Source: an uncultured Candidatus Saccharibacteria bacterium (GTDB taxonomy: Bacteria > Patescibacteriota > Minisyncoccia > Phycocordibacterales > Zambryskibacteraceae). Taken from it: a DNA stretch of 64,000 nucleotides. The stretch lies in the NCBI GenBank assembly GCA_964642835.1, contig CAZXQA010000001.1, positions 202,831 through 266,830 on the forward strand, in the 5' to 3' direction. Below are positions 2,448-50,816 of the stretch, piece by piece. Every line of letters begins with the position of its first letter. Within the stretch, counting starts at the first letter, position 1. The position numbers were made by a program, and so were the translations under genes. The notes under the pieces were generated by a model. That model saw only the letters and a program-made list of their open reading frames with translations. It ran no database searches and was not told the DNA's origin.

Positions 2448-2520
2448 GGGAGACTACTTGACACTTTCTCGTATTTTTTATATTGTATAGAGGTATAGGG
2501 TTATCTCCTCTACGTTACGC

Positions 2521-3786
2521 ATGTATAGACCAGGGTCAAACAACAGCGGACGCGCTTCGAGCGCTCCTCGCGCCGGCGGTAAGCCGTCCTTCAGGGGCGG
2601 TTTTGGTGCTGGCTCACGCGGTGCTCGTCCAGGTGGTCGTGGTGGTGCTCGCCCGGGTCGCAGCCGCTTTGCGGACAAGTCTTTCTCCGACCTTTCTAAA
2701 TTCGTGAATAAAGTTTCTGTCGTCGAAGAGGCCGAAGTCTTTGTCCCCGAACACACCTTCACTGATTTCCTAATCGCCGAGAAGCTCAAACAAAACATTT
2801 TGACGAAGGGCTACACGCTCCCGACGCCGATTCAGGATAAGGTTATCCCGCACATTCTTCGTCGCGAAGATGTCGTGGGTATCGCGAACACAGGTACCGG
2901 TAAGACCGCCGCCTTCCTCATCCCTCTCATCGACAAGGTGCTTCGGGATGGCAATCAGAACGTGCTTATCATGGTCCCGACGCGCGAGCTCGCGGGTCAG
3001 ATTCGCGACGAATTGTCTGGATTCACGAGTGGTATGAGCATCTGGTCGGTGGTATGCGTCGGCGGCACCTCGATCGTGCCTCAGATCAAGGCTTTGCGAC
3101 ACAAGAATCAGTTCGTGATCGGCACGCCTGGTCGCTTGAAGGACCTTATGGAGCAGGGCTACCTTCGTTTGAACGAGTACGGCACTGTGGTCCTCGACGA
3201 AGCGGACCGCATGCTCGACATGGGCTTCATTAACGACGTGAAGATGATGCTCGGGAAGCTTCCGGCTGACCGTCACACCCTCTTCTTCTCCGCGACGACT
3301 ACGCCCGAGATCACAGGCCTCATTTCCAAATTCTTGAAGCAGCCGGTTACCATTTCCGTTAAAACACGCGATACCTCTGGCTCGATCGACCAGGATGTTG
3401 TTCGCGTCGCTCATCACGAAGATAAGATTGGTAAGCTCGCCGATCTGCTTCGCACCGCCGATTTCTCGAAGGTGCTCGTCTTCGGCAAGACCAAACACGG
3501 CGTCGAGAAGCTCGCTAAGGCTCTCACTACCATGGGTCTGCGTGCCGAATCCATTCACGGGAACAAAAATTTCAATAAACGCCAACAGGCTTTGAGTCAG
3601 TTTAAAGATAACAAGGTGAAGATCCTCGTGGCGACCGACGTCGCCGCGCGCGGTCTCGACATTGCCGACGTCTCTCACGTTATTAACTTCGATTTGCCAG
3701 CTACGTACGAAGACTACATTCACCGCATCGGCCGCACTGGCCGCGGGGGCAAGAAGGGCAACGCTCTCACGTTTGTCCAAGGTTAA
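2521..3786 (+). CDS. DEAD-box ATP-dependent RNA helicase with N-terminal Arg/Gly-rich extension
   Basis: Q-motif, Walker A NTGTGKTAAF, DEAD box VVLDEADRMLDMGF, SAT, HRIGRTGRGG motif VI. Confidence 0.9.
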   Translation: MYRPGSNNSGRASSAPRAGGKPSFRGGFGAGSRGARPGGRGGARPGRSRFADKSFSDLSKFVNKVSVVEEAEVFVPEHTFTDFLIAEKLKQNILTKGYTLPTPIQDKVIPHILRREDVVGIANTGTGKTAAFLIPLIDKVLRDGNQNVLIMVPTRELAGQIRDELSGFTSGMSIWSVVCVGGTSIVPQIKALRHKNQFVIGTPGRLKDLMEQGYLRLNEYGTVVLDEADRMLDMGFINDVKMMLGKLPADRHTLFFSATTTPEITGLISKFLKQPVTISVKTRDTSGSIDQDVVRVAHHEDKIGKLADLLRTADFSKVLVFGKTKHGVEKLAKALTTMGLRAESIHGNKNFNKRQQALSQFKDNKVKILVATDVAARGLDIADVSHVINFDLPATYEDYIHRIGRTGRGGKKGNALTFVQG

Positions 3787-9679: not shown

Positions 9680-10468
9680 ATGAAGCTGCCGTTGTATAAA
9701 GGGGTCACGGGATTTATGAGCAGGGCGCAAGCTATTGCTGCTCTGGATGCTGACGGGAATGAGGGCCGTCAACTCATGATCGGTGTTCTAGCAAGCGACA
9801 AGACGCTCCGGGGTGATTCGCCGACGGGAGCACGGTGGGTGAATCGTTATCCGAAAATTGATGACATTGCCTCGATTTTCATCGGTCACCCTGCCATCGT
9901 CAATCTCGTGCACTACAATACGAGGAACAGCGACGGCCTCTGCGAACAGCTCTATGAGCTGACGAAGAAGTCGGGGCCACACTGTCAGGGCTTCCAACTC
10001 AACATGGCGTGGCCGGATCCGAAGCAACTGCTCCGTTTCCATGCCCATACGAACTGGGAGAAGCGGATTGTGCTCCAGATCGGAGTCGGCGCCATGAAGC
10101 TACTCGACTGCAACCCCAAGCGAATCGCCGACAAGATTGGCGAGTATCTCGGGGCTCATCCGGTGATCCGAGATGCGCTCATCGACGCGAGTGGAGGCCT
10201 CGGCACGGACTTCGTGCTTGAGGACACCCGCGAACTGGTCAGGGAGATCTGCAGTCGGCACTACGAGGCCAATCTCGGTGTTGCGGGTGGTCTTCACGCC
10301 GGTAACCTTCATCGGCTCGTACCGCTTCTCGAGGAGGCTAACAAGTTCGGGCAGAGTTTGAGCATCGATGCTGAAGGGAAGTTGCGTCAGACACCGGAAG
10401 ACCCTCTCGATGTGAGGCTCATGGCTGACTACCTTGTTGCAGTAGAGGCCCTGTTCCTCAAGTTTTGA
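9680..10468 (+). CDS. TIM-barrel protein resembling phosphoribosylanthranilate isomerase (TrpF family), orphan
   Basis: IDASGGLGTDF and VAGGLHAGNL resemble TrpF LDxxxGGxGxxFDW / LAGGL motifs; no other trp genes nearby. Confidence 0.4.
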   Translation: MKLPLYKGVTGFMSRAQAIAALDADGNEGRQLMIGVLASDKTLRGDSPTGARWVNRYPKIDDIASIFIGHPAIVNLVHYNTRNSDGLCEQLYELTKKSGPHCQGFQLNMAWPDPKQLLRFHAHTNWEKRIVLQIGVGAMKLLDCNPKRIADKIGEYLGAHPVIRDALIDASGGLGTDFVLEDTRELVREICSRHYEANLGVAGGLHAGNLHRLVPLLEEANKFGQSLSIDAEGKLRQTPEDPLDVRLMADYLVAVEALFLKF

Positions 10469-10545
10469 GTCCCACACACAAACACCCGCCAGAGCGATCT
10501 GGCGGGTGTCTTTTATACCTAATCTTGAATGCTGGGTATTACGAG

Positions 10546-12420
10546 CTACACACCCAAGATGACAGGGATGACGATAGGCTTCTTGGCCGTCTTCTGGAAG
10601 AGGAAGCGAGAAATGTCTTCCGTCACGGCGTTCTTGGCGTTGTCGAAGTTGTGCGGATTGCCGGGCACCGAGGTGTGTTTCTCGATACTATGCTTGATGA
10701 TGTTGCGAGCTTCGGAGAGAAGAGCTTGAGATTCGCGCAGATAAACGAAGCCGCGGGCAATGATGTCCGGGCTCTTCTTCAACCTGCCGTTTCGGGCGTT
10801 CACGATAGCCACGACGACGAAGATGCCGTCCGCGGAGAGCATCTTGCGGTCACGAATGACGACATCTGGGATGTCACCAACGACCATGCCTTCGACGACC
10901 ATATCTTCAGATTGTGCCTTCTCCTTCAACTTCACGAGAGTCTGACCCTTGTCGCGGAGTTCGATGATGGAACCGTTCTCAGGGACGACGATGTTCTCGC
11001 GAGGCGTACCGAGGTTCGCGGCCAATTCGGCATGCATCTTCAAGCGGAAGTGAGAACCGTGGATTGGCATAAAGAACTTGTACGGAATCTGGCGATGGAT
11101 CCACTCAAGTTCACCGCGCTTACCGTGACCCGAGGTGTGCACGTCGGAGTCGAGGTAGGTGATGATGCGCGCGTCATGGCGGAAGAGGTTGTCCTTGAGC
11201 TTCTCAACGGCGCGGTCGTTACCTGGAATGACGGAGGAAGAAAGGATAACCGTGTCCGAGCGCTGGAGACGGATCTGCTTGTGAGTCTTGTTGGCCATGC
11301 GACCGAGCGCGGCGAACTCTTCGCCCTGAGCACCGGTTACGATCATCATGACTTTGTTGGGAGCGAGCTTGTCGAGCTCTTCGAGCGGCGCGAGGTGGTC
11401 GGTGTTCACGAGATTCAAATGCTTGATGATCTCGATGTTCGTCTTCATGCTCCTGCCTTCGATGACAACCTTGCGGCCGTAGCGCTTGGCGCTATTAATG
11501 AATTCGATAATACGCTCAACCTGAGAGGCGAAGGTGGCAATGACGACGCGGCCCGGTGCATCCTTCACGAGAGCGTCGATGTTCTTCAAGATCGAGGCCT
11601 CAGAAGGCGAGAAGCCTGGCTTGTCGATACCGGTCGAGTCCATGGTAAAGAGAAGGGTCTTCCTATCCTTAAACATGCTGTAGTACTCGACTTCTTTGTC
11701 GACTGGGACGCCGGCTTCATTCTCGACGCGTACGTCACCGGTGTTCACGATGTCGCCGAACGGTGTTTCGATAATGACGCCAGTCGAATCCGGGATCGAG
11801 TGCGTGAGTCCGAAGAAGCGAATCTTTAAGTTGGCAGATACAGGGATGGACTTGTCAGAGGCATCGACAATACGGATGTCGAGCGGAGCGAGCTGCGGGA
11901 ATTCTTCCTGACGCTTCTTAATGAGAAGGGCGCCGAACTCGCGAGTGTAAATCGGCGGATTGCCGAGACGCTCGATGAGGAAGGGGATACCGCCGATGTG
12001 GTCGAGGTGACCATGGGTCACGGCGAGAGCGCGGATCTTGTGTTTGCGCTCTTCAAGATACTTCGTGTTGGGAAGAATGTAGTCGATGCCTGGCGTGTCG
12101 TCGTTCGAGAAGAGAATGCCGGCATCAATGACGATGATATCGTCACCATACTCGATGGCGGTCATGTTGCGACCGATTTCCTCCGTGCCGCCCAAAGGAA
12201 TGATGCGGATCGTTTCCGGAGCGAGAGGCGGAATGACGTCGATCGGTTTCTTGGCCGGGAGTGGAGCCTGCGTGCGGCGGCGCATGTTCTTGTGACGAAG
12301 ACTCTTCGTGAAGTTCGAACGAGCCGGCGCGACGGTTGGCGTAGAAGCGGGGGTGTGAGTTGGGTTCATGGAATGCGTTACGGAATAATTATGTGTAATG
12401 GCTAACGAGGCACTGAGCAC
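10546..12420 (-). CDS. rnj: ribonuclease J (metallo-beta-lactamase/beta-CASP RNase) with basic N-terminal extension
   Basis: HGHLDHIGG motif, beta-CASP and C-terminal domain typical of RNase J; about 70 aa Thr/Pro/Lys-rich N-terminal tail. Confidence 0.9.
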   Translation of the reverse strand: MLSASLAITHNYSVTHSMNPTHTPASTPTVAPARSNFTKSLRHKNMRRRTQAPLPAKKPIDVIPPLAPETIRIIPLGGTEEIGRNMTAIEYGDDIIVIDAGILFSNDDTPGIDYILPNTKYLEERKHKIRALAVTHGHLDHIGGIPFLIERLGNPPIYTREFGALLIKKRQEEFPQLAPLDIRIVDASDKSIPVSANLKIRFFGLTHSIPDSTGVIIETPFGDIVNTGDVRVENEAGVPVDKEVEYYSMFKDRKTLLFTMDSTGIDKPGFSPSEASILKNIDALVKDAPGRVVIATFASQVERIIEFINSAKRYGRKVVIEGRSMKTNIEIIKHLNLVNTDHLAPLEELDKLAPNKVMMIVTGAQGEEFAALGRMANKTHKQIRLQRSDTVILSSSVIPGNDRAVEKLKDNLFRHDARIITYLDSDVHTSGHGKRGELEWIHRQIPYKFFMPIHGSHFRLKMHAELAANLGTPRENIVVPENGSIIELRDKGQTLVKLKEKAQSEDMVVEGMVVGDIPDVVIRDRKMLSADGIFVVVAIVNARNGRLKKSPDIIARGFVYLRESQALLSEARNIIKHSIEKHTSVPGNPHNFDNAKNAVTEDISRFLFQKTAKKPIVIPVILGV

Positions 12421-45464: not shown

Positions 45465-45917
45465 ATGATCAGCACCGACCAAATTAAAGAGCTCCGTGAC
45501 GCTACCGGCCTCTCTCTGCAGCAGATCCGCGTCGCCCTCGAAGAAGCAGGGGGAGATAAGGAGAAGGCGCTCGCCATCCTTAAAGAGAAGAGTGGGGAAA
45601 TTGCTGCGAAGAAAAGTGATCGCACCTTGGGCTCAGGTTACATTGGCTCCTACGTTCATTCCAACGGCACAGTAGGCGCCATGGTGGAACTCCTCTGCGA
45701 GACCGACTTCGTAGCCAAGAATCCTGAATTCCAAGCCGCCGCCAAGGACATGGCCATGCACATCGCCGCCATGAACCCTCTCGACCAGGGCGAACTCCTC
45801 GAGCAAGCCTTCATCAAGGGCTCCGGTGGAACGATTGGGGAAATGGTCAACGGCCTCATCCAGAAGTTCGGTGAGCGCACGGAGATCGGTAAGTTCACTC
45901 GCTTCTCACTTAATTAA
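45465..45917 (+). CDS. tsf: elongation factor Ts (short form)
   Basis: N-terminal UBA-like IKELRDATG...; LLCETDFVAKN core motif. Confidence 0.85.
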   Translation: MISTDQIKELRDATGLSLQQIRVALEEAGGDKEKALAILKEKSGEIAAKKSDRTLGSGYIGSYVHSNGTVGAMVELLCETDFVAKNPEFQAAAKDMAMHIAAMNPLDQGELLEQAFIKGSGGTIGEMVNGLIQKFGERTEIGKFTRFSLN

Positions 45918-48685: not shown

Positions 48686-48727
48686 AAGCTCATAGATTAT
48701 AGACGTTTTATGTTATAATTTCAACCC

Positions 48728-49885
48728 ATGAAGATCACGATCGAAACCCCAGAAGAAAGTGCCTTGAGAGCTAATTTGGCTCTCCGCACCGACGCGGAAG
48801 CCGAACGCATCAAGCGCTACCTCGCCATGCCCGACCTCTCCCGCACGCCAGGGAGTCCCCTCTATGACATTACCGAGCGCGTGAAGGCGGCTCCGTCGTT
48901 CGCAGGCTTCGACCTCATCGAAATTCCCGAAATTGTCCCGACCTCCATTCTCTTCGACCTCTTCGACTTCCCAGCCGATCACCCCGCGCGCTCGAAGTCA
49001 GACACGTATTATGTAGATGAACAGAATGTTTTGCGTACTCACGACACCGTCTTCTGGTACTACTATCTCCAGAACCCAGAGGTGAAAGCTCGCATCGCCA
49101 AAGGAGAAGCCATGGGCGCGCTCTGCCACGGCAAAGTCTACCGCAAAGACGAGATCGATTCTCGTCACATGAACATCTTTCATCAGTTTGGCGGTTGGTT
49201 CATCGCGCCGAAAGGGCAGGTGAACGTCGAAGATTTGAAAACAGCTTTAGGTGAGGTCGTGAAGACTGTCTTCGGGCCTGAGCAGATCTTCCGCATCAAT
49301 ACCGACACCTTCCCATACACTGATCCCTCCTTCGAAGTTGAGGTCAACGTGAAGGGGACTGCCGCCGAAGGCCCAGCGAAGGGTGAGTGGCTCGAAATTT
49401 TAGGCTCCGGCATGCCGAAAGCCTCTGTGCTACAGAAGATGGGGGTTGAAGGGTACGAGGGCTGGGCCTTCGGTTTCGGGATCGAGCGCCTCGCTATTAT
49501 TTCCATGCAGCTTCCGGACATTCGCCTCCTCTGGTCCACCGACGAGCGCGTGAAGGGCCAACTCAAACTGGGCACGGTCTATAAAGAAGTTTCCAAATTC
49601 CCTCCGGTTATCCGCGACATCTCCTTCATCGTGCCAAAATCCTTCATCCTAAACGACTACTTCGACCTCGTCCGTGATATCGGCGGCGACATGGTAGAAG
49701 ACGTTAAGATGACCGACAAATATGAAAATGATGAGAAATTCGGTGCCGACAAGATGTCCTACACCTTCCGCATTACCTATCGTCACCTCGAGCGTACACT
49801 CACCAACGATGAGGTAAATATTGTCCACGCCAAACTCGAAGACAAGACGGAAAGTGAGTTCAGTGCCCAGGTTCGCCGAGTATAG
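48728..49885 (+). CDS. monomeric phenylalanyl-tRNA synthetase-like protein: PheS-type class II catalytic core fused to a C-terminal FDX-ACB anticodon-binding domain (mitochondrial-type architecture)
   Basis: motif 1 DHPARSKSDTYY, motif 2 YRKDEIDSRHMNIFHQFGG, motif 3 GWAFGFGIERLAII; C-terminal FPPVIRDISFIV...YTFRITYRHLERTLTNDEVN resembles the FDX-ACB domain normally at the PheT C-terminus; no pheT nearby. Confidence 0.8.
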   Translation: MKITIETPEESALRANLALRTDAEAERIKRYLAMPDLSRTPGSPLYDITERVKAAPSFAGFDLIEIPEIVPTSILFDLFDFPADHPARSKSDTYYVDEQNVLRTHDTVFWYYYLQNPEVKARIAKGEAMGALCHGKVYRKDEIDSRHMNIFHQFGGWFIAPKGQVNVEDLKTALGEVVKTVFGPEQIFRINTDTFPYTDPSFEVEVNVKGTAAEGPAKGEWLEILGSGMPKASVLQKMGVEGYEGWAFGFGIERLAIISMQLPDIRLLWSTDERVKGQLKLGTVYKEVSKFPPVIRDISFIVPKSFILNDYFDLVRDIGGDMVEDVKMTDKYENDEKFGADKMSYTFRITYRHLERTLTNDEVNIVHAKLEDKTESEFSAQVRRV

Positions 49886-50106
49886 ACATCCATCAAAATA
49901 CCTTGTAATCTACTGACCAGGCGTTCCACTAACCATATTCGGGGGTCAGAGTGCGCACTACGAATTGGGATAGGTTAATCACGTCGGACCCACGGGATTC
50001 CGTTGCAGCCCGGGTTACCAGAGCTTCACCTCGCTGGTGTGCTCCACCGCAGGAAGTAAGGCCGAAGGTGCAGATCGAACCGACGGCAGCGACCCTGCCG
50101 ACCGAC

Positions 50107-50298
50107 ATGTCCAACTTTACGGGTAAAAGAATTGGTTCAATCGTGATCACAGGGTTCTGGAAGAAAGGGCGCCCGGCACGCAACAGTGTCTGGAAAGGCC
50201 TTTGCGACTGCGGCAAAACGGTCTACCGTCGACACCATTGGGTGAAAAATCCTCGGGACGACAACTACGACCGGTGCGACGCCTGCGCTCATCGGTAG
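50107..50298 (+). CDS. hypothetical small Cys-cluster (zinc-ribbon-like) protein
   Basis: CDCG...CDAC motif; preceded by about 180 nt GC-rich structured leader; followed by strong terminator; longer GTG-initiated version 49951..50298 also possible. Confidence 0.35.
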   Translation: MSNFTGKRIGSIVITGFWKKGRPARNSVWKGLCDCGKTVYRRHHWVKNPRDDNYDRCDACAHR

Positions 50299-50311
50299 AA
50301 CAACGAAACCA

Positions 50312-50342
50312 AGCCGCCTAGTTCACGCTAGGCGGCTTTTTT
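50312..50342 (+). terminator. rho-independent terminator
   Basis: GCCGCCTAG-TTCACG-CTAGGCGGC then TTTTTT. Confidence 0.7.
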
Positions 50343-50378
50343 ATCCCCATCTCCTCCTGCAAAGGATAATCCTTTGCA
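50341..50378 (+). repeat. intergenic repeat copy 2: TTATCCCCA + perfect palindrome TGCAAAGGATAATCCTTTGCA
   Basis: palindrome identical to 50737-50757; TTATCCCCA is 8/9 DnaA-box consensus. Confidence 0.55.
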
Positions 50379-50428
50379 ACTTGAAGCCATCTTTTGGTAT
50401 CGTGAGGAAGGACGCATCGAGGAGACCC

Positions 50429-50671
50429 ATGGCTACATACATCAGTGAACGGCCCGTCAAAACCGAGCGTTCCGATCGAGTCATCAGGATGTTCCAAAAC
50501 ACCTTCCCAATCGGCAAGATTGAGGTGGTGCAACCTGCTCACAACCCGCCAGAAGTCTCTCAAGCGAAATCGGCTTACTTTGCCATCGAGATTCCAATCT
50601 TAGAAGAAGAGAGGCTCGCTGTCTGGCTCAACCGACTCAACGGTCGCCAGATGAAGAAGCAGAAGAAATAA
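50429..50671 (+). CDS. hypothetical small protein flanked by the palindromic repeats
   Basis: ATG with GGAGA RBS; followed by strong terminator; no family motif (ORF track gives TTG-start version 50381..50671). Confidence 0.35.
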   Translation: MATYISERPVKTERSDRVIRMFQNTFPIGKIEVVQPAHNPPEVSQAKSAYFAIEIPILEEERLAVWLNRLNGRQMKKQKK

Positions 50672-50674
50672 ACC

Positions 50675-50707
50675 CCGCCGCCCGGAACATCGGGCGGCTG
50701 TTTTTAT
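50675..50707 (+). terminator. rho-independent terminator
   Basis: CCGCCCG-GAACAT-CGGGCGG then CTGTTTTTAT. Confidence 0.7.
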
Positions 50708-50709
50708 AC

Positions 50710-50757
50710 TTATCCCCAGTTTTTGATCTATTTTATGCAAAGGATAATCCTTTGCAT
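50710..50757 (+). repeat. intergenic repeat copy 3: TTATCCCCAGTTTTTG + 10 nt + palindrome TGCAAAGGATAATCCTTTGCA, immediately upstream of gyrB promoter
   Basis: shares 15-mer with copy 1 and 21-mer palindrome with copy 2; TATAAT at 50795-50800 follows. Confidence 0.55.
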
Positions 50758-50816
50758 GGGGGCAAAATACGGCTTTCTTGTAGAGCTAAAATCTGCTATA
50801 ATACGGGGTACCAAAC

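What the first reader, a model, noticed from the sequence alone, without database searches (positions are those of the whole stretch)
48728..49885. Monomeric, mitochondrial-type PheRS: PheS catalytic core fused to a PheT-type FDX-ACB anticodon-binding domain
The 385-aa protein carries the three class II PheS motifs. Its N-terminus is short instead of having the bacterial coiled-coil arm. Its C-terminus (FPPVIRDISFIV...YTFRITYRHLERTLTNDEVN) closely resembles the ferredoxin-fold anticodon-binding domain that normally ends bacterial PheT.

This alpha-catalytic plus beta-ACB fusion is the architecture of monomeric mitochondrial PheRS. No pheT is adjacent. If this is the cell's only PheRS, the cell has no PheT editing domain for mischarged Tyr-tRNA(Phe).
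Basis: partly seen in the sequence, partly recalled or inferred. Interest (0 to 1): 0.65.

Follow-up and report, generated by a model that had tools for sequence, protein, structure and literature searches.

The report
Single-chain, mitochondrial-type PheRS in a bacterium
This tiny-genome (Patescibacteria) bacterium appears to charge tRNA-Phe with a one-piece enzyme of the kind otherwise known only from mitochondria and plastids, instead of the four-subunit proofreading enzyme said to be universal in prokaryotes.

Summary
ORF 48728-49885 (+) encodes 385 aa with a PheS-type class II catalytic core (Pfam 1.7e-51) fused to a full-length FDX-ACB anticodon-binding domain (1.6e-22). Its closest solved relative in sequence and fold is human mitochondrial PheRS (TM 0.74 to the tRNA-bound state).

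The gene is native: composition matches its neighbours, gyrB/prfA synteny is conserved, and dN/dS is 0.06. It is single-copy in 46 Paceibacteria species, including closed ~0.8-Mb chromosomes. It also occurs in UGA=Gly CPR bacteria.

No PheT part other than FDX-ACB was found in the window or in 670 kb of related flanks. Published domain counts for 17 Parcubacteria genomes show one tRNA-synt_2d and one FDX-ACB per genome, which the fused gene accounts for in two genomes I verified. So it is very probably the only PheRS, without an editing domain. I could not scan this genome myself.

The family splits into a bacterial (CPR) clade and a eukaryote plus giant-virus clade, apparently with one origin of the fusion. 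I found no paper describing this. NCBI names these proteins "hypothetical". I rate it a new bacterial variant of a known enzyme type, of moderately high interest.

The parts
48728..49885 (+). Complete gene for the single-chain PheRS (385 aa plus stop codon)
   Evidence: ORF list. The identical protein P0001 is in public data on a 486.7-kb NCBI contig and on Logan contig L001. GC 0.537 and GC3 0.676 match neighbouring housekeeping genes. dN/dS is 0.06 against L002.
48728..48832 (+). Short N-terminal helical hairpin (residues 1-35), a vestige of the PheS coiled-coil arm. It is followed by the clade signature MPDLSRTPGSP.
   Evidence: AF2 helices 8-19 and 23-33. It aligns to the last part of the E. 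coli PheS coiled coil. The signature is shared by Paceibacteria, P0129 and P0123 but not by mito-type sequences.
48857..49558 (+). Class II PheS-type catalytic module (residues 44-277)
   Evidence: Pfam PF01409, E 1.7e-51. Motif 2 lies at 49130-49195, the FPYT Phe-pocket loop at 49310-49321 and motif 3 at 49460-49498. E. coli T251 and A294 equivalents are conserved. dN/dS is 0.04.
49352..49381 (+). Sub-clade-specific surface insert KGTAAEGPAK (residues 209-218)
   Evidence: Absent from other Paceibacteria and from mito-type sequences. Invariant among the closest 20 relatives. The model has its second-lowest confidence here (pLDDT about 68).
49559..49591 (+). Linker or hinge between the catalytic and anticodon-binding domains (residues 278-288)
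   Evidence: Lies between the two Pfam domains. The flanking PDIRLLWS.DERV..QL sequence is conserved with human FARS2. A hinge function is inferred from the open and closed human structures.
49592..49876 (+). Ferredoxin-fold anticodon-binding domain (FDX-ACB, the PheT B8 type; residues 289-383)
   Evidence: Pfam PF03147 full length, E 1.6e-22. It is 46% identical (85 bits) to the human FARS2 ACB but 24% (28 bits) to the E. coli PheT ACB. dN/dS is 0.13.

Best explanation
This gene encodes the cell's housekeeping phenylalanyl-tRNA synthetase, in the one-chain form known from mitochondria and plastids.

The catalytic module binds Phe and ATP, makes Phe-AMP and transfers Phe to tRNA-Phe. The C-terminal ferredoxin-fold domain, joined by a short hinge, reads the GAA anticodon. 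This replaces the whole beta subunit.

The organism is a Paceibacteria (Parcubacteria, CPR/Patescibacteria) bacterium. It most probably has no PheT, so it has no B3/B4 editing site for Tyr-tRNA-Phe or m-Tyr-tRNA-Phe. Fidelity would then rest on the synthetic-site pocket alone.

Shown here: architecture, fold, conserved catalytic and pocket residues, purifying selection, native single-copy status across the class, and absence of PheT parts wherever sequence could be read.

Inferred: monomeric state, GAA recognition, hinge motion, absence of editing, and genome-wide absence of pheS/pheT in this particular genome.
For: - **Architecture and fold:**. The AF2 model has pLDDT 89. The top Foldseek hits are all human mtPheRS, and the best whole-chain superposition is on the tRNA-bound open state 3TUP (TM 0.74).
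- **Active site:** motifs 2 and 3 are intact, the E. coli T251/A294 equivalents are conserved, and the RKDEID motif-2 insertion is shared with the mitochondrial type.
- **Essential-gene behaviour:** dN/dS is 0.06, and 140 of 385 positions are invariant among 21 relatives of 71-100% identity.
- **Native, single copy:** there is one copy in each of 46 GTDB species loci, including closed chromosomes. gyrB is adjacent in 18 loci and prfA/tsf are nearby. Composition is native.
- **No canonical partner found:** tblastn with E. coli PheT and PheS over the window plus 670 kb of related flanks finds no B3_4, B5 or beta-core, and no second PheS.
- **Published domain counts:** Table S2 of PMC4508563 gives one tRNA-synt_2d and one FDX-ACB per genome in nearly all of 17 Parcubacteria genomes. 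These include closed RAAC4, and C7867-001 and C7867-005, which I showed carry the fused gene.
- **Published core-gene table:** the 17-genome core table lists pheS (16 genomes) but no pheT/COG0072.
- **PheT-like relatives:** the 120 nearest relatives of a PheT-N-terminal-like CPR ORF are all stand-alone tRNA_bind proteins, and none is a real PheT.
- **Second CPR lineage:** the same enzyme sits in a housekeeping context in UGA=Gly CPR bacteria.
Against: - The rest of this genome could not be read, so a distant pheS-pheT pair is not excluded directly.
- The B5 and B3_4 columns of the published table are cut off in the stored copy.
- Absence of pheT from the published core table is weak on its own, because alaS, ileS, glyS and proS are also missing from it.
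- This protein scores below the curated cut-offs of every NCBIfam PheRS model: pheS_mito 224.7 against 258, pheS 156.6 against 237. The clade representative P0121 does pass pheS_mito (264.3).
- The second Phe of the FPF pocket loop is Tyr (FPY), and its effect is unknown.
- No tRNA-Phe gene was available to check identity elements.
- No biochemistry exists.
Confidence: 0.8

Rival explanations
1. It is an extra PheS-related paralogue (an SrmL-like 'mystery ligase' or other non-canonical ligase) that coexists with a normal pheS-pheT pair elsewhere in the genome and is not the housekeeping PheRS.
For: - NCBIfam gives a sub-threshold hit to NF051887 'PheS-related mystery ligase SrmL' (211 bits) that is nearly as good as the hit to pheS_mito (224.7).
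- The closest non-CPR relative, P0123, sits in a large-genome Oligoflexia MAG, where it is probably an additional copy.
- The whole genome was not scanned.
Against: - The SrmL cut-off (300 bits) is missed by about 90 bits, and none of 20 family representatives reaches it.
- No homologue is named SrmL.
- Published counts show only one tRNA-synt_2d domain per Parcubacteria genome, so there is no second PheS for a canonical enzyme.
- The Phe-pocket residues are conserved.
- The gene is ubiquitous and single-copy, and under strong purifying selection, in 0.5-0.9-Mb genomes.
Confidence: 0.07
2. It is the catalytic PheRS chain but does not act alone. It works with one or more separately encoded helpers, for example a free-standing PheT-B2/Trbp111-like tRNA-binding protein or a free-standing editing factor. 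This would make it a split enzyme rather than a minimal one.
For: - In L039, a 120-aa tRNA_bind ORF (38% identical to E. coli PheT residues 45-142) ends 20 nt upstream of the fused gene.
- At least 857 such stand-alone proteins exist. Those with organism names are from CPR bacteria, and JGI often labels them 'PheRS beta chain'.
Against: - The adjacency is seen in only 1 of 46 loci, and no copy lies in this window or in the other flanks.
- Human and yeast mitochondrial enzymes of the same architecture are active alone (PMC3275996).
- No B3/B4-like sequence was found anywhere that could be read.
Confidence: 0.12
3. The gene is foreign: either a recent transfer from a eukaryote or giant virus, or a binning or assembly contaminant. 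In that case it says nothing about this bacterium's translation system.
For: The family's other main clade is eukaryotic/organellar plus giant-virus.
Against: - The Paceibacteria sequences form their own clade (bootstrap 99) outside the eukaryote/virus clade.
- GC and GC3 equal those of neighbouring genes.
- Synteny with gyrB, prfA and tsf is conserved.
- The gene is present on closed chromosomes.
- The mito-type insertion is absent.
Confidence: 0.01

Closest known systems
Mitochondrial/organellar monomeric PheRS (human FARS2, yeast MSF1; AARS Online 'PheRS-M'; NCBIfam TIGR00469; PDB 3CMQ, 3TUP)
   Same: - Same two-domain chain: PheS catalytic module plus FDX-ACB (B8-type) domain through a short hinge.
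- It is the best sequence and fold match (E 1e-55; TM 0.74 to 3TUP).
- They share the RKDEID motif-2 insertion and the PDIRL(L/F)W..DER linker.
- The ACB domain is far closer to FARS2 (46%) than to PheT (24%).
- Neither has an editing domain.
   Different: - It is bacterial and chromosomal, not nuclear-encoded or organelle-targeted.
- It lacks the ~40-residue insertion that splits the human match into two stretches.
- It keeps a two-helix N-terminal remnant and an insert after WYYYL.
- The pocket loop is FPY, not FPF.
- It scores below the TIGR00469 cut-off (224.7 against 258).
- It falls in a separate clade (split bootstrap about 65).
Canonical bacterial (alpha-beta)2 PheRS (PheS TIGR00468 plus PheT TIGR00472; e.g. 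E. coli, T. thermophilus)
   Same: - The catalytic module is homologous to PheS (32% identity to E. coli PheS; motifs 1-3; T251/A294 equivalents).
- The C-terminal domain is homologous to the last domain (B8) of PheT.
   Different: - One chain instead of two genes.
- No coiled-coil arm.
- None of PheT domains B1-B7, including the B3/B4 editing site.
- It fails both curated cut-offs (156.6 against 237; 75 against 403).
NCBIfam NF051887 'PheS-related mystery ligase SrmL'
   Same: The SrmL model aligns across both domains (profile positions 34-342 of 349). SrmL proteins therefore appear to share the core-plus-ACB layout.
   Different: - The score is 211 against a cut-off of 300.
- None of 20 representatives sampled from the family reaches the cut-off.
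- No homologue carries the name.
- I found no publication on SrmL, so its defining biology is unknown to me.
Giant-virus (Nucleocytoviricota) monomeric PheRS genes seen on IMG/VR contigs
   Same: Same two-domain architecture in compact 340-370-aa forms.
   Different: - They belong to the eukaryote-type clade and pass TIGR00469.
- They are 35-37% identical to the window protein (P0133 and P0150).
- They lie on contigs of mostly 60 kb to 1.47 Mb, several labelled GVMAG.

Membership tests
Monomeric organellar-type PheRS (PheRS-M / TIGR00469) | PheS-type class II catalytic module with motifs 1-3 and a Phe pocket | tested here: met
   PF01409, E 1.7e-51. Motifs and the T198/A247 pocket residues are conserved.
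Monomeric organellar-type PheRS (PheRS-M / TIGR00469) | FDX-ACB (B8-type) anticodon-binding domain fused C-terminally on the same chain | tested here: met
   PF03147 full length, E 1.6e-22. 46% identity to the FARS2 ACB.
Monomeric organellar-type PheRS (PheRS-M / TIGR00469) | Three-dimensional fold and domain arrangement of mtPheRS | tested here: met
   AF2 pLDDT 89.2. The top 7 Foldseek hits are human mtPheRS, with TM 0.74 and rmsd 4.0 A to 3TUP_A.
Monomeric organellar-type PheRS (PheRS-M / TIGR00469) | Scores above the curated equivalog cut-off (258.35 bits) | tested here: not met
   224.7 bits for this protein. The Paceibacteria representative P0121 passes with 264.3.
Monomeric organellar-type PheRS (PheRS-M / TIGR00469) | Acts without a beta subunit: no PheT in the same genetic system | tested here: inconclusive
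   No PheT was found in the window or in 670 kb of related flanks. Published counts give one FDX-ACB and one tRNA-synt_2d per Parcubacteria genome. The rest of this genome was not readable.
Monomeric organellar-type PheRS (PheRS-M / TIGR00469) | Monomeric and active alone in tRNA-Phe charging; no editing activity | not testable with these tools
   Requires biochemistry.
Monomeric organellar-type PheRS (PheRS-M / TIGR00469) | Eukaryotic, nuclear-encoded and organelle-targeted | tested here: not met
   It is a bacterial chromosomal gene among gyrB, prfA, mraZ and ftsI. All 46 GTDB loci are from Patescibacteria-type MAGs, those with specific names being Paceibacteria lineages.
Canonical bacterial PheS (TIGR00468), alpha subunit of (alpha-beta)2 | Scores above the curated cut-off (237.45 bits) | tested here: not met
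   156.6 bits.
Canonical bacterial PheS (TIGR00468), alpha subunit of (alpha-beta)2 | Long N-terminal coiled-coil arm, and the chain ends after the catalytic module | tested here: not met
   Only 35-43 residues precede the core, and about 100 extra C-terminal residues form the FDX-ACB domain.
Canonical bacterial PheS (TIGR00468), alpha subunit of (alpha-beta)2 | Partner pheT gene, usually adjacent | tested here: not met
   None in the 64-kb window or in any of the 46 related loci.
Bacterial PheT (TIGR00472) | Multi-domain beta subunit (tRNA_bind, B3_4, B5, beta-core, FDX-ACB), cut-off 402.65 bits | tested here: not met
   75 bits, and only profile positions 698-798 (the last domain) match.
SrmL 'PheS-related mystery ligase' (NF051887) | Scores above the curated cut-off (300 bits) | tested here: not met
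   211 bits. None of 20 family representatives passes.
SrmL 'PheS-related mystery ligase' (NF051887) | Whatever genomic context or function defines SrmL | not testable with these tools
   No publication was found, and no named member was retrieved.

The most novel reading that the evidence does not exclude
The one-chain PheRS was not invented in eukaryotes. On this reading, the alpha-core/beta-B8 fusion arose once in bacteria and has been the sole, editing-free PheRS of a large part of the Candidate Phyla Radiation (Paceibacteria and the UGA=Gly lineages) since before those lineages split. Eukaryotes, and later giant viruses, obtained their organellar PheRS (FARS2) from such a lineage rather than by trimming the alphaproteobacterial endosymbiont's heterotetramer.

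My evidence shows reciprocal clades with a shared fusion junction and shared indels. It does not show the direction of transfer.
Probability: 0.3. Interest if true: 0.8.

Novelty: new variant of a known kind. Interest (0 to 1): 0.6.

Why it matters
Reviews state that the heterotetrameric organisation of prokaryotic PheRS is conserved in all known species, and that the mitochondrial enzyme is the only monomeric class II synthetase of its type (PMC3275996). If the reading here is right, there are four consequences.

1. **Exception to the rule.** A whole, very diverse bacterial class breaks that rule and lives without the PheT editing site. That makes it a natural test case for how much Tyr or m-Tyr misincorporation a free-living or epibiotic cell tolerates, or for how the synthetic site compensates.
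2. **Origin of organellar PheRS.** There is now a bacterial sister group with which to test where FARS2 came from.
3. **Annotation and completeness estimates.** NCBI calls these proteins 'hypothetical', JGI calls them 'alpha chain', and calls stand-alone tRNA_bind proteins 'beta chain'. Marker sets that count FDX-ACB as 'pheT', or that expect TIGR00468/TIGR00472, will mis-score CPR genome completeness.
4. **A tool.** At 376-385 aa, a bacterial enzyme of this kind is a candidate minimal PheRS for engineering.

Tried and rejected
- **Phage origin.** P0133's context looked phage-like. INPHARED gave only one weak two-domain hit, in a 635-kb megaphage, and a single-protein IMG/VR scan found nothing. 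A profile scan then placed these short forms on giant-virus-sized contigs. Phage origin is rejected.
- **Named viruses.** The BFVD structure library holds no PheRS-M-like match, only generic class II aaRS at 8-15% identity.
- **Literature.** Searches for a described bacterial monomeric PheRS were all negative: PheRS plus Patescibacteria returned 0 papers; 'monomeric/organellar PheRS' phrases returned 16 papers, and the 11 listed all concern organelles or general tRNA biology; SrmL returned nothing relevant. One apparent hit was only pheS counter-selection.
- **Gene tables of other CPR papers.** Three papers held nothing on PheRS in the text or supplements I searched. Two more were silent in their main text.
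- **Canonical PheS among nearest hits.** I looked for a CPR PheT to use as a probe. The two 'core-only' hits were an intron-split mito-type gene on a TARA ocean contig (P0249) and an uninformative 1.4-kb TARA contig (P0255).
- **Free-standing tRNA_bind ORF as a general partner.** It is adjacent in only 1 of 46 loci.
- **tRNA-Phe identity elements.** No tRNA-Phe gene lies in the window or in 36 loci.
- **Contig-length matching.** I compared contig lengths between the PheRS hit lists and the tRNA_bind hit list. Only L039's own contig (141,254 bp) matched.
- **AFDB fold search.** The library was unavailable.
- **Plus-strand promoter.** The scan called no promoter upstream of the gene, only a minus-strand one for the divergent glycosyltransferase.
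Full report
**1. The observation**

- Pfam finds a PheS-type class II core (tRNA-synt_2d, residues 44-277, E 1.7e-51).
- After an 11-residue linker comes a full-length ferredoxin-fold anticodon-binding domain (FDX-ACB, residues 289-383, profile positions 1-94 of 94, E 1.6e-22).
- Only 35-43 residues precede the core. In the AlphaFold2 model they form two short helices rather than the long coiled-coil arm of bacterial PheS.
- Motif 2 (GKVYRKDEIDSRHMNIFHQFGG), motif 3 (GWAFGFGIERLAI) and the pocket loop (FPYT) are intact. The two positions that set Phe specificity in E. coli PheS (T251 and A294, numbering checked on the E. coli sequence) are conserved as T198 and A247.

**2. What it resembles**

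Among solved structures, the best sequence matches are all human mitochondrial PheRS (E about 1e-55). Bacterial PheS chains follow at 1e-32 and cover only the first two thirds of the protein. PheT chains match only the last ~100 residues.

The AF2 model is confident (mean pLDDT 89.2, pTM 0.77). Its top seven Foldseek hits in the PDB are human mtPheRS entries. The best whole-chain superposition is on 3TUP, the tRNA-bound 'open' state (TM 0.74, rmsd 4.0 A). The closed apo form gives TM 0.57.

Taken separately, both halves prefer the mitochondrial type:
- The ACB domain is 46% identical (85 bits) to the FARS2 ACB but 24% (28 bits) to the E. coli PheT ACB.
- The C-terminal half of the core scores 95 bits against FARS2 and 74 against E. 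coli PheS.

The two types also share a one-residue insertion in motif 2 (RKDEID against E. coli RND-YD) and the same linker (PDIRLLWS.DER). The fusion therefore looks like a single event shared with the organellar enzymes, not a convergence.

**3. Whose gene it is**

The window is a small-genome bacterium with the standard code. Stop codons among the selected ORFs are TAA 34, TAG 20 and TGA 13. Neighbours include GroEL, RNR, prfA, a short EF-Ts, a GT2 glycosyltransferase, gyrB, mraZ and ftsI.

The identical protein is on a 486.7-kb NCBI contig. Close relatives number in the thousands. The top 120 are all 372-431 aa, with the same two Pfam domains and 71-100% identity. The named ones are Parcubacteria or Patescibacteria.

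A scan of one genome per GTDB species returned 46 loci with one copy each, at 56-90% identity. They come from Kaiser-, Lipton-, Giovannoni-, Taylor- and Nomurabacteria, Minisyncoccia and 'Paceibacterota', and include closed ~0.8-Mb chromosomes.

The gene is native and constrained:
- GC and GC3 equal those of flanking genes.
- gyrB is adjacent in 18 loci, and prfA and tsf are nearby in 10-13.
- dN/dS against the closest relative is 0.06 (core 0.04, linker plus ACB 0.13).

**4. Is it the only PheRS?**

This is the crux, and I could not scan the rest of this genome. What I could do follows.

- **(a) tblastn.** I searched E. coli PheT and PheS against the window plus 670 kb flanking the gene in related genomes. 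There was no B3_4, B5 or beta-core match anywhere, exactly one PheS-like match per locus, and FDX-ACB matches only inside the fused gene.
- **(b) Published genome-wide counts.** Nelson & Stegen 2015 (PMC4508563) tabulate Pfam single-copy marker domains in 17 Parcubacteria genomes.
  - tRNA-synt_2d occurs once in 15 of 17 genomes.
  - FDX-ACB, which their table labels 'pheT', occurs once in 16 of 17, including the closed RAAC4 genome.
  - Two of those genomes, C7867-001 (89% complete) and C7867-005 (93%), carry the fused gene (P0093 = KND51669.1; L042; completeness).
  - The fused gene accounts for both counts. That leaves no separate PheS and no FDX-ACB-bearing PheT in those genomes.
- **(c) Published core table.** Their core-gene table lists pheS/COG0016 in 16 genomes and no pheT/COG0072. 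This is weak on its own, because alaS, ileS, glyS and proS are also missing from that table.
- **(d) A test that could have refuted the claim.** I searched with a PheT-N-terminal-like ORF from locus L039. Its 120 closest relatives are all 116-173-aa stand-alone tRNA_bind proteins. The few with organism names are CPR bacteria. None has B3_4, B5 or FDX-ACB.

Limits: the B5 and B3_4 columns of the published table are cut off in the stored copy, and that paper never comments on PheRS architecture. Overall I put the probability that this is the sole PheRS, with no PheT, at about 0.8.

**5. Family structure**

An exhaustive HMMER search of 1.84 billion representatives found only 181 hits at E<=1e-30. 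None of the top 150 is a canonical PheS. One of the two 'core-only' hits is an intron-split gene on a TARA ocean contig, and the other lies on a 1.4-kb contig that gives no context.

A neighbour-joining tree rooted on E. coli PheS gives a Paceibacteria clade with bootstrap 99. This lies within a 'CPR-type' clade (bootstrap 66) that also contains:
- two sequences from UGA=Gly organisms. P0129 has 13 in-frame TGA codons, at least six of them on conserved Gly columns, and it sits next to an ATP-synthase operon;
- a small Oligoflexia group (P0123).

The sister 'mito-type' clade (bootstrap 65) holds two kinds of sequence:
- 408-500-aa eukaryote-like sequences with the insertion seen in FARS2;
- many 338-371-aa forms that pass TIGR00469. 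A profile scan of IMG/VR places forms of this kind on 45 viral contigs, mostly 60 kb to 1.47 Mb long, several labelled GVMAG. They are giant-virus genes.

The clades are reciprocal and neither is nested in the other, so the direction of any transfer is unresolved. The tree has one outgroup, uses a distance method and has moderate support. It is indicative only.

**6. Rival assignments**

NCBIfam offers a sub-threshold match to 'PheS-related mystery ligase SrmL' (211 bits against a cut-off of 300), next to pheS_mito (224.7 against 258) and pheS (156.6 against 237). None of 20 representatives reaches the SrmL cut-off, several pass pheS_mito, and no homologue is named SrmL. With only one tRNA-synt_2d per genome, the paralogue reading is unlikely (about 0.07).

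A helper-dependent enzyme is possible. In L039, a tRNA_bind ORF lies 20 nt upstream. However, that adjacency occurs in only 1 of 46 loci.

Contamination or recent transfer is excluded by composition, synteny and phylogeny.

**7. Mechanism**

Shown: the domains, fold, motifs, pocket residues, selection and distribution.

Inferred from the human enzyme (PMC3275996; PDB 3CMQ and 3TUP):
- The chain works as a monomer.
- The ACB domain swings on the hinge to present the GAA anticodon while the acceptor end reaches the catalytic site.
- With no B3/B4 domain there is no post-transfer editing, so Tyr and m-Tyr discrimination depends on the synthetic pocket.
- The clade-invariant FPY (in place of FPF) and the retained N-terminal hairpin are candidates for lineage-specific tuning. 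Their effects are unknown.

**8. Novelty**

The architecture itself is well known from organelles. What appears undescribed is its use as the housekeeping PheRS of a major bacterial lineage.

Reviews state that prokaryotic PheRS is heterotetrameric 'in all known species' and that the mitochondrial enzyme is the only monomeric class II example. The 11 listed of the 16 papers that use 'monomeric/organellar PheRS' phrases concern organelles or general tRNA biology. No paper contains both PheRS and Patescibacteria. The searchable library is open-access only, so a description elsewhere cannot be excluded.

The sequences are public but poorly labelled. NCBI names the Paceibacteria members 'hypothetical protein', and JGI calls them 'PheRS alpha chain'.

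I rate this a new (bacterial, housekeeping) variant of a known kind, with interest 0.6.

Noticed in passing
L039:9609-9971 (+), 20 nt upstream of the fused PheRS gene at 9992-11131: A free-standing 120-aa tRNA_bind (PF01588) ORF, 38% identical to E. coli PheT residues 45-142. At least 857 relatives exist. The 120 closest are all stand-alone (116-173 aa). The few with organism names are CPR bacteria (Doudnabacteria, 'Patescibacteria group'). JGI often labels these proteins 'PheRS beta chain'. It could be a trans-acting tRNA-binding helper or a PheT remnant.
   Followed up: partly
L058-L102 (IMG/VR contigs, e.g. IMGVR_UViG_2974536336_000001 of 1.47 Mb; several GVMAG names): 45 viral contigs encode relatives, nearly all full-length two-domain monomeric PheRS, 38-50% identical to P0133. 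They are on giant-virus-sized contigs. Representatives of this size (338-371 aa) pass the curated pheS_mito cut-off and cluster with eukaryotic organellar PheRS.
   Followed up: partly
L052:9463-10833 and L053:154-1524 (protein P0129): A CPR-type monomeric PheRS gene with 13 in-frame TGA codons, most of them on conserved Gly columns including motif 3. The neighbouring ATP-synthase gene has 10 more. This is the UGA=Gly code (Gracilibacteria/Absconditabacteria). The public protein was translated with UGA=Trp, so it carries W at those Gly positions.
   Followed up: yes
L054:473-1237 and 2465-3520 (protein P0150): A short mito-type monomeric PheRS lies one gene away from a Biopterin_H (aromatic amino-acid/phenylalanine hydroxylase) gene and next to a CHAP-domain gene, on a 6.6-kb metagenome contig. 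This is an apparent Phe-related pairing on a possibly viral contig.
   Followed up: no
L051:10001-11245 (protein P0123; NCBI GCA_019694465.1, Oligoflexia MAG): A CPR-type two-domain PheRS (46% identical to the window protein) sits in a large-genome-style neighbourhood of a predatory-bacterium lineage, where NCBI names it 'hypothetical protein'. It is probably an extra copy acquired from CPR, or a mis-binned contig. Only about 9 close relatives exist.
   Followed up: partly
window 45465-45917 (+): The EF-Ts homologue is only 150 aa and matches just positions 1-76 of the 204-position Pfam EF_TS profile. It is a strongly shortened elongation factor Ts.
   Followed up: no
window 49886-50816: There is an unusually long (930-bp) gap between the PheRS gene and gyrB, with no terminator directly after PheRS. 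The gap holds two small ORFs, each followed by a strong G+C-rich terminator hairpin (50311-50338 and 50677-50698). One is a 63-aa Cys-rich ORF (50107-50298; CxC...CxxC), found otherwise only in L002 at 36% identity. Neither ORF has a Pfam hit.
   Followed up: partly
window 48686-48727: Only 42 bp separate the PheRS gene from the divergent GT2 gene. A perfect TATAAT (48716-48721) ends 6 nt before the ATG and there is no Shine-Dalgarno, which suggests a leaderless mRNA. The scan tool calls only a minus-strand promoter here (48724-48696, 11 of 12 matches).
   Followed up: no
window 49352-49381 (residues 209-218, KGTAAEGPAK): A 9-10-residue insert in a catalytic-domain loop. It is invariant in the closest ~20 relatives but absent from other Paceibacteria and all mito-type sequences. 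Model confidence is low here.
   Followed up: no
phage record LR745206.1:613869-614858 (hit H1): A 635-kb uncultured megaphage encodes a match covering 92% of a monomeric PheRS (both domains) at 26% identity. It is the only such hit among 50,697 phage records.
   Followed up: no
Public annotation of the family: NCBI names the Paceibacteria members 'hypothetical protein' because they fall below the TIGR00469, TIGR00468 and NF051887 cut-offs. A published marker table counts their FDX-ACB domain as 'pheT'. Marker-based completeness estimates for CPR genomes may therefore be mis-scored.
   Followed up: partly
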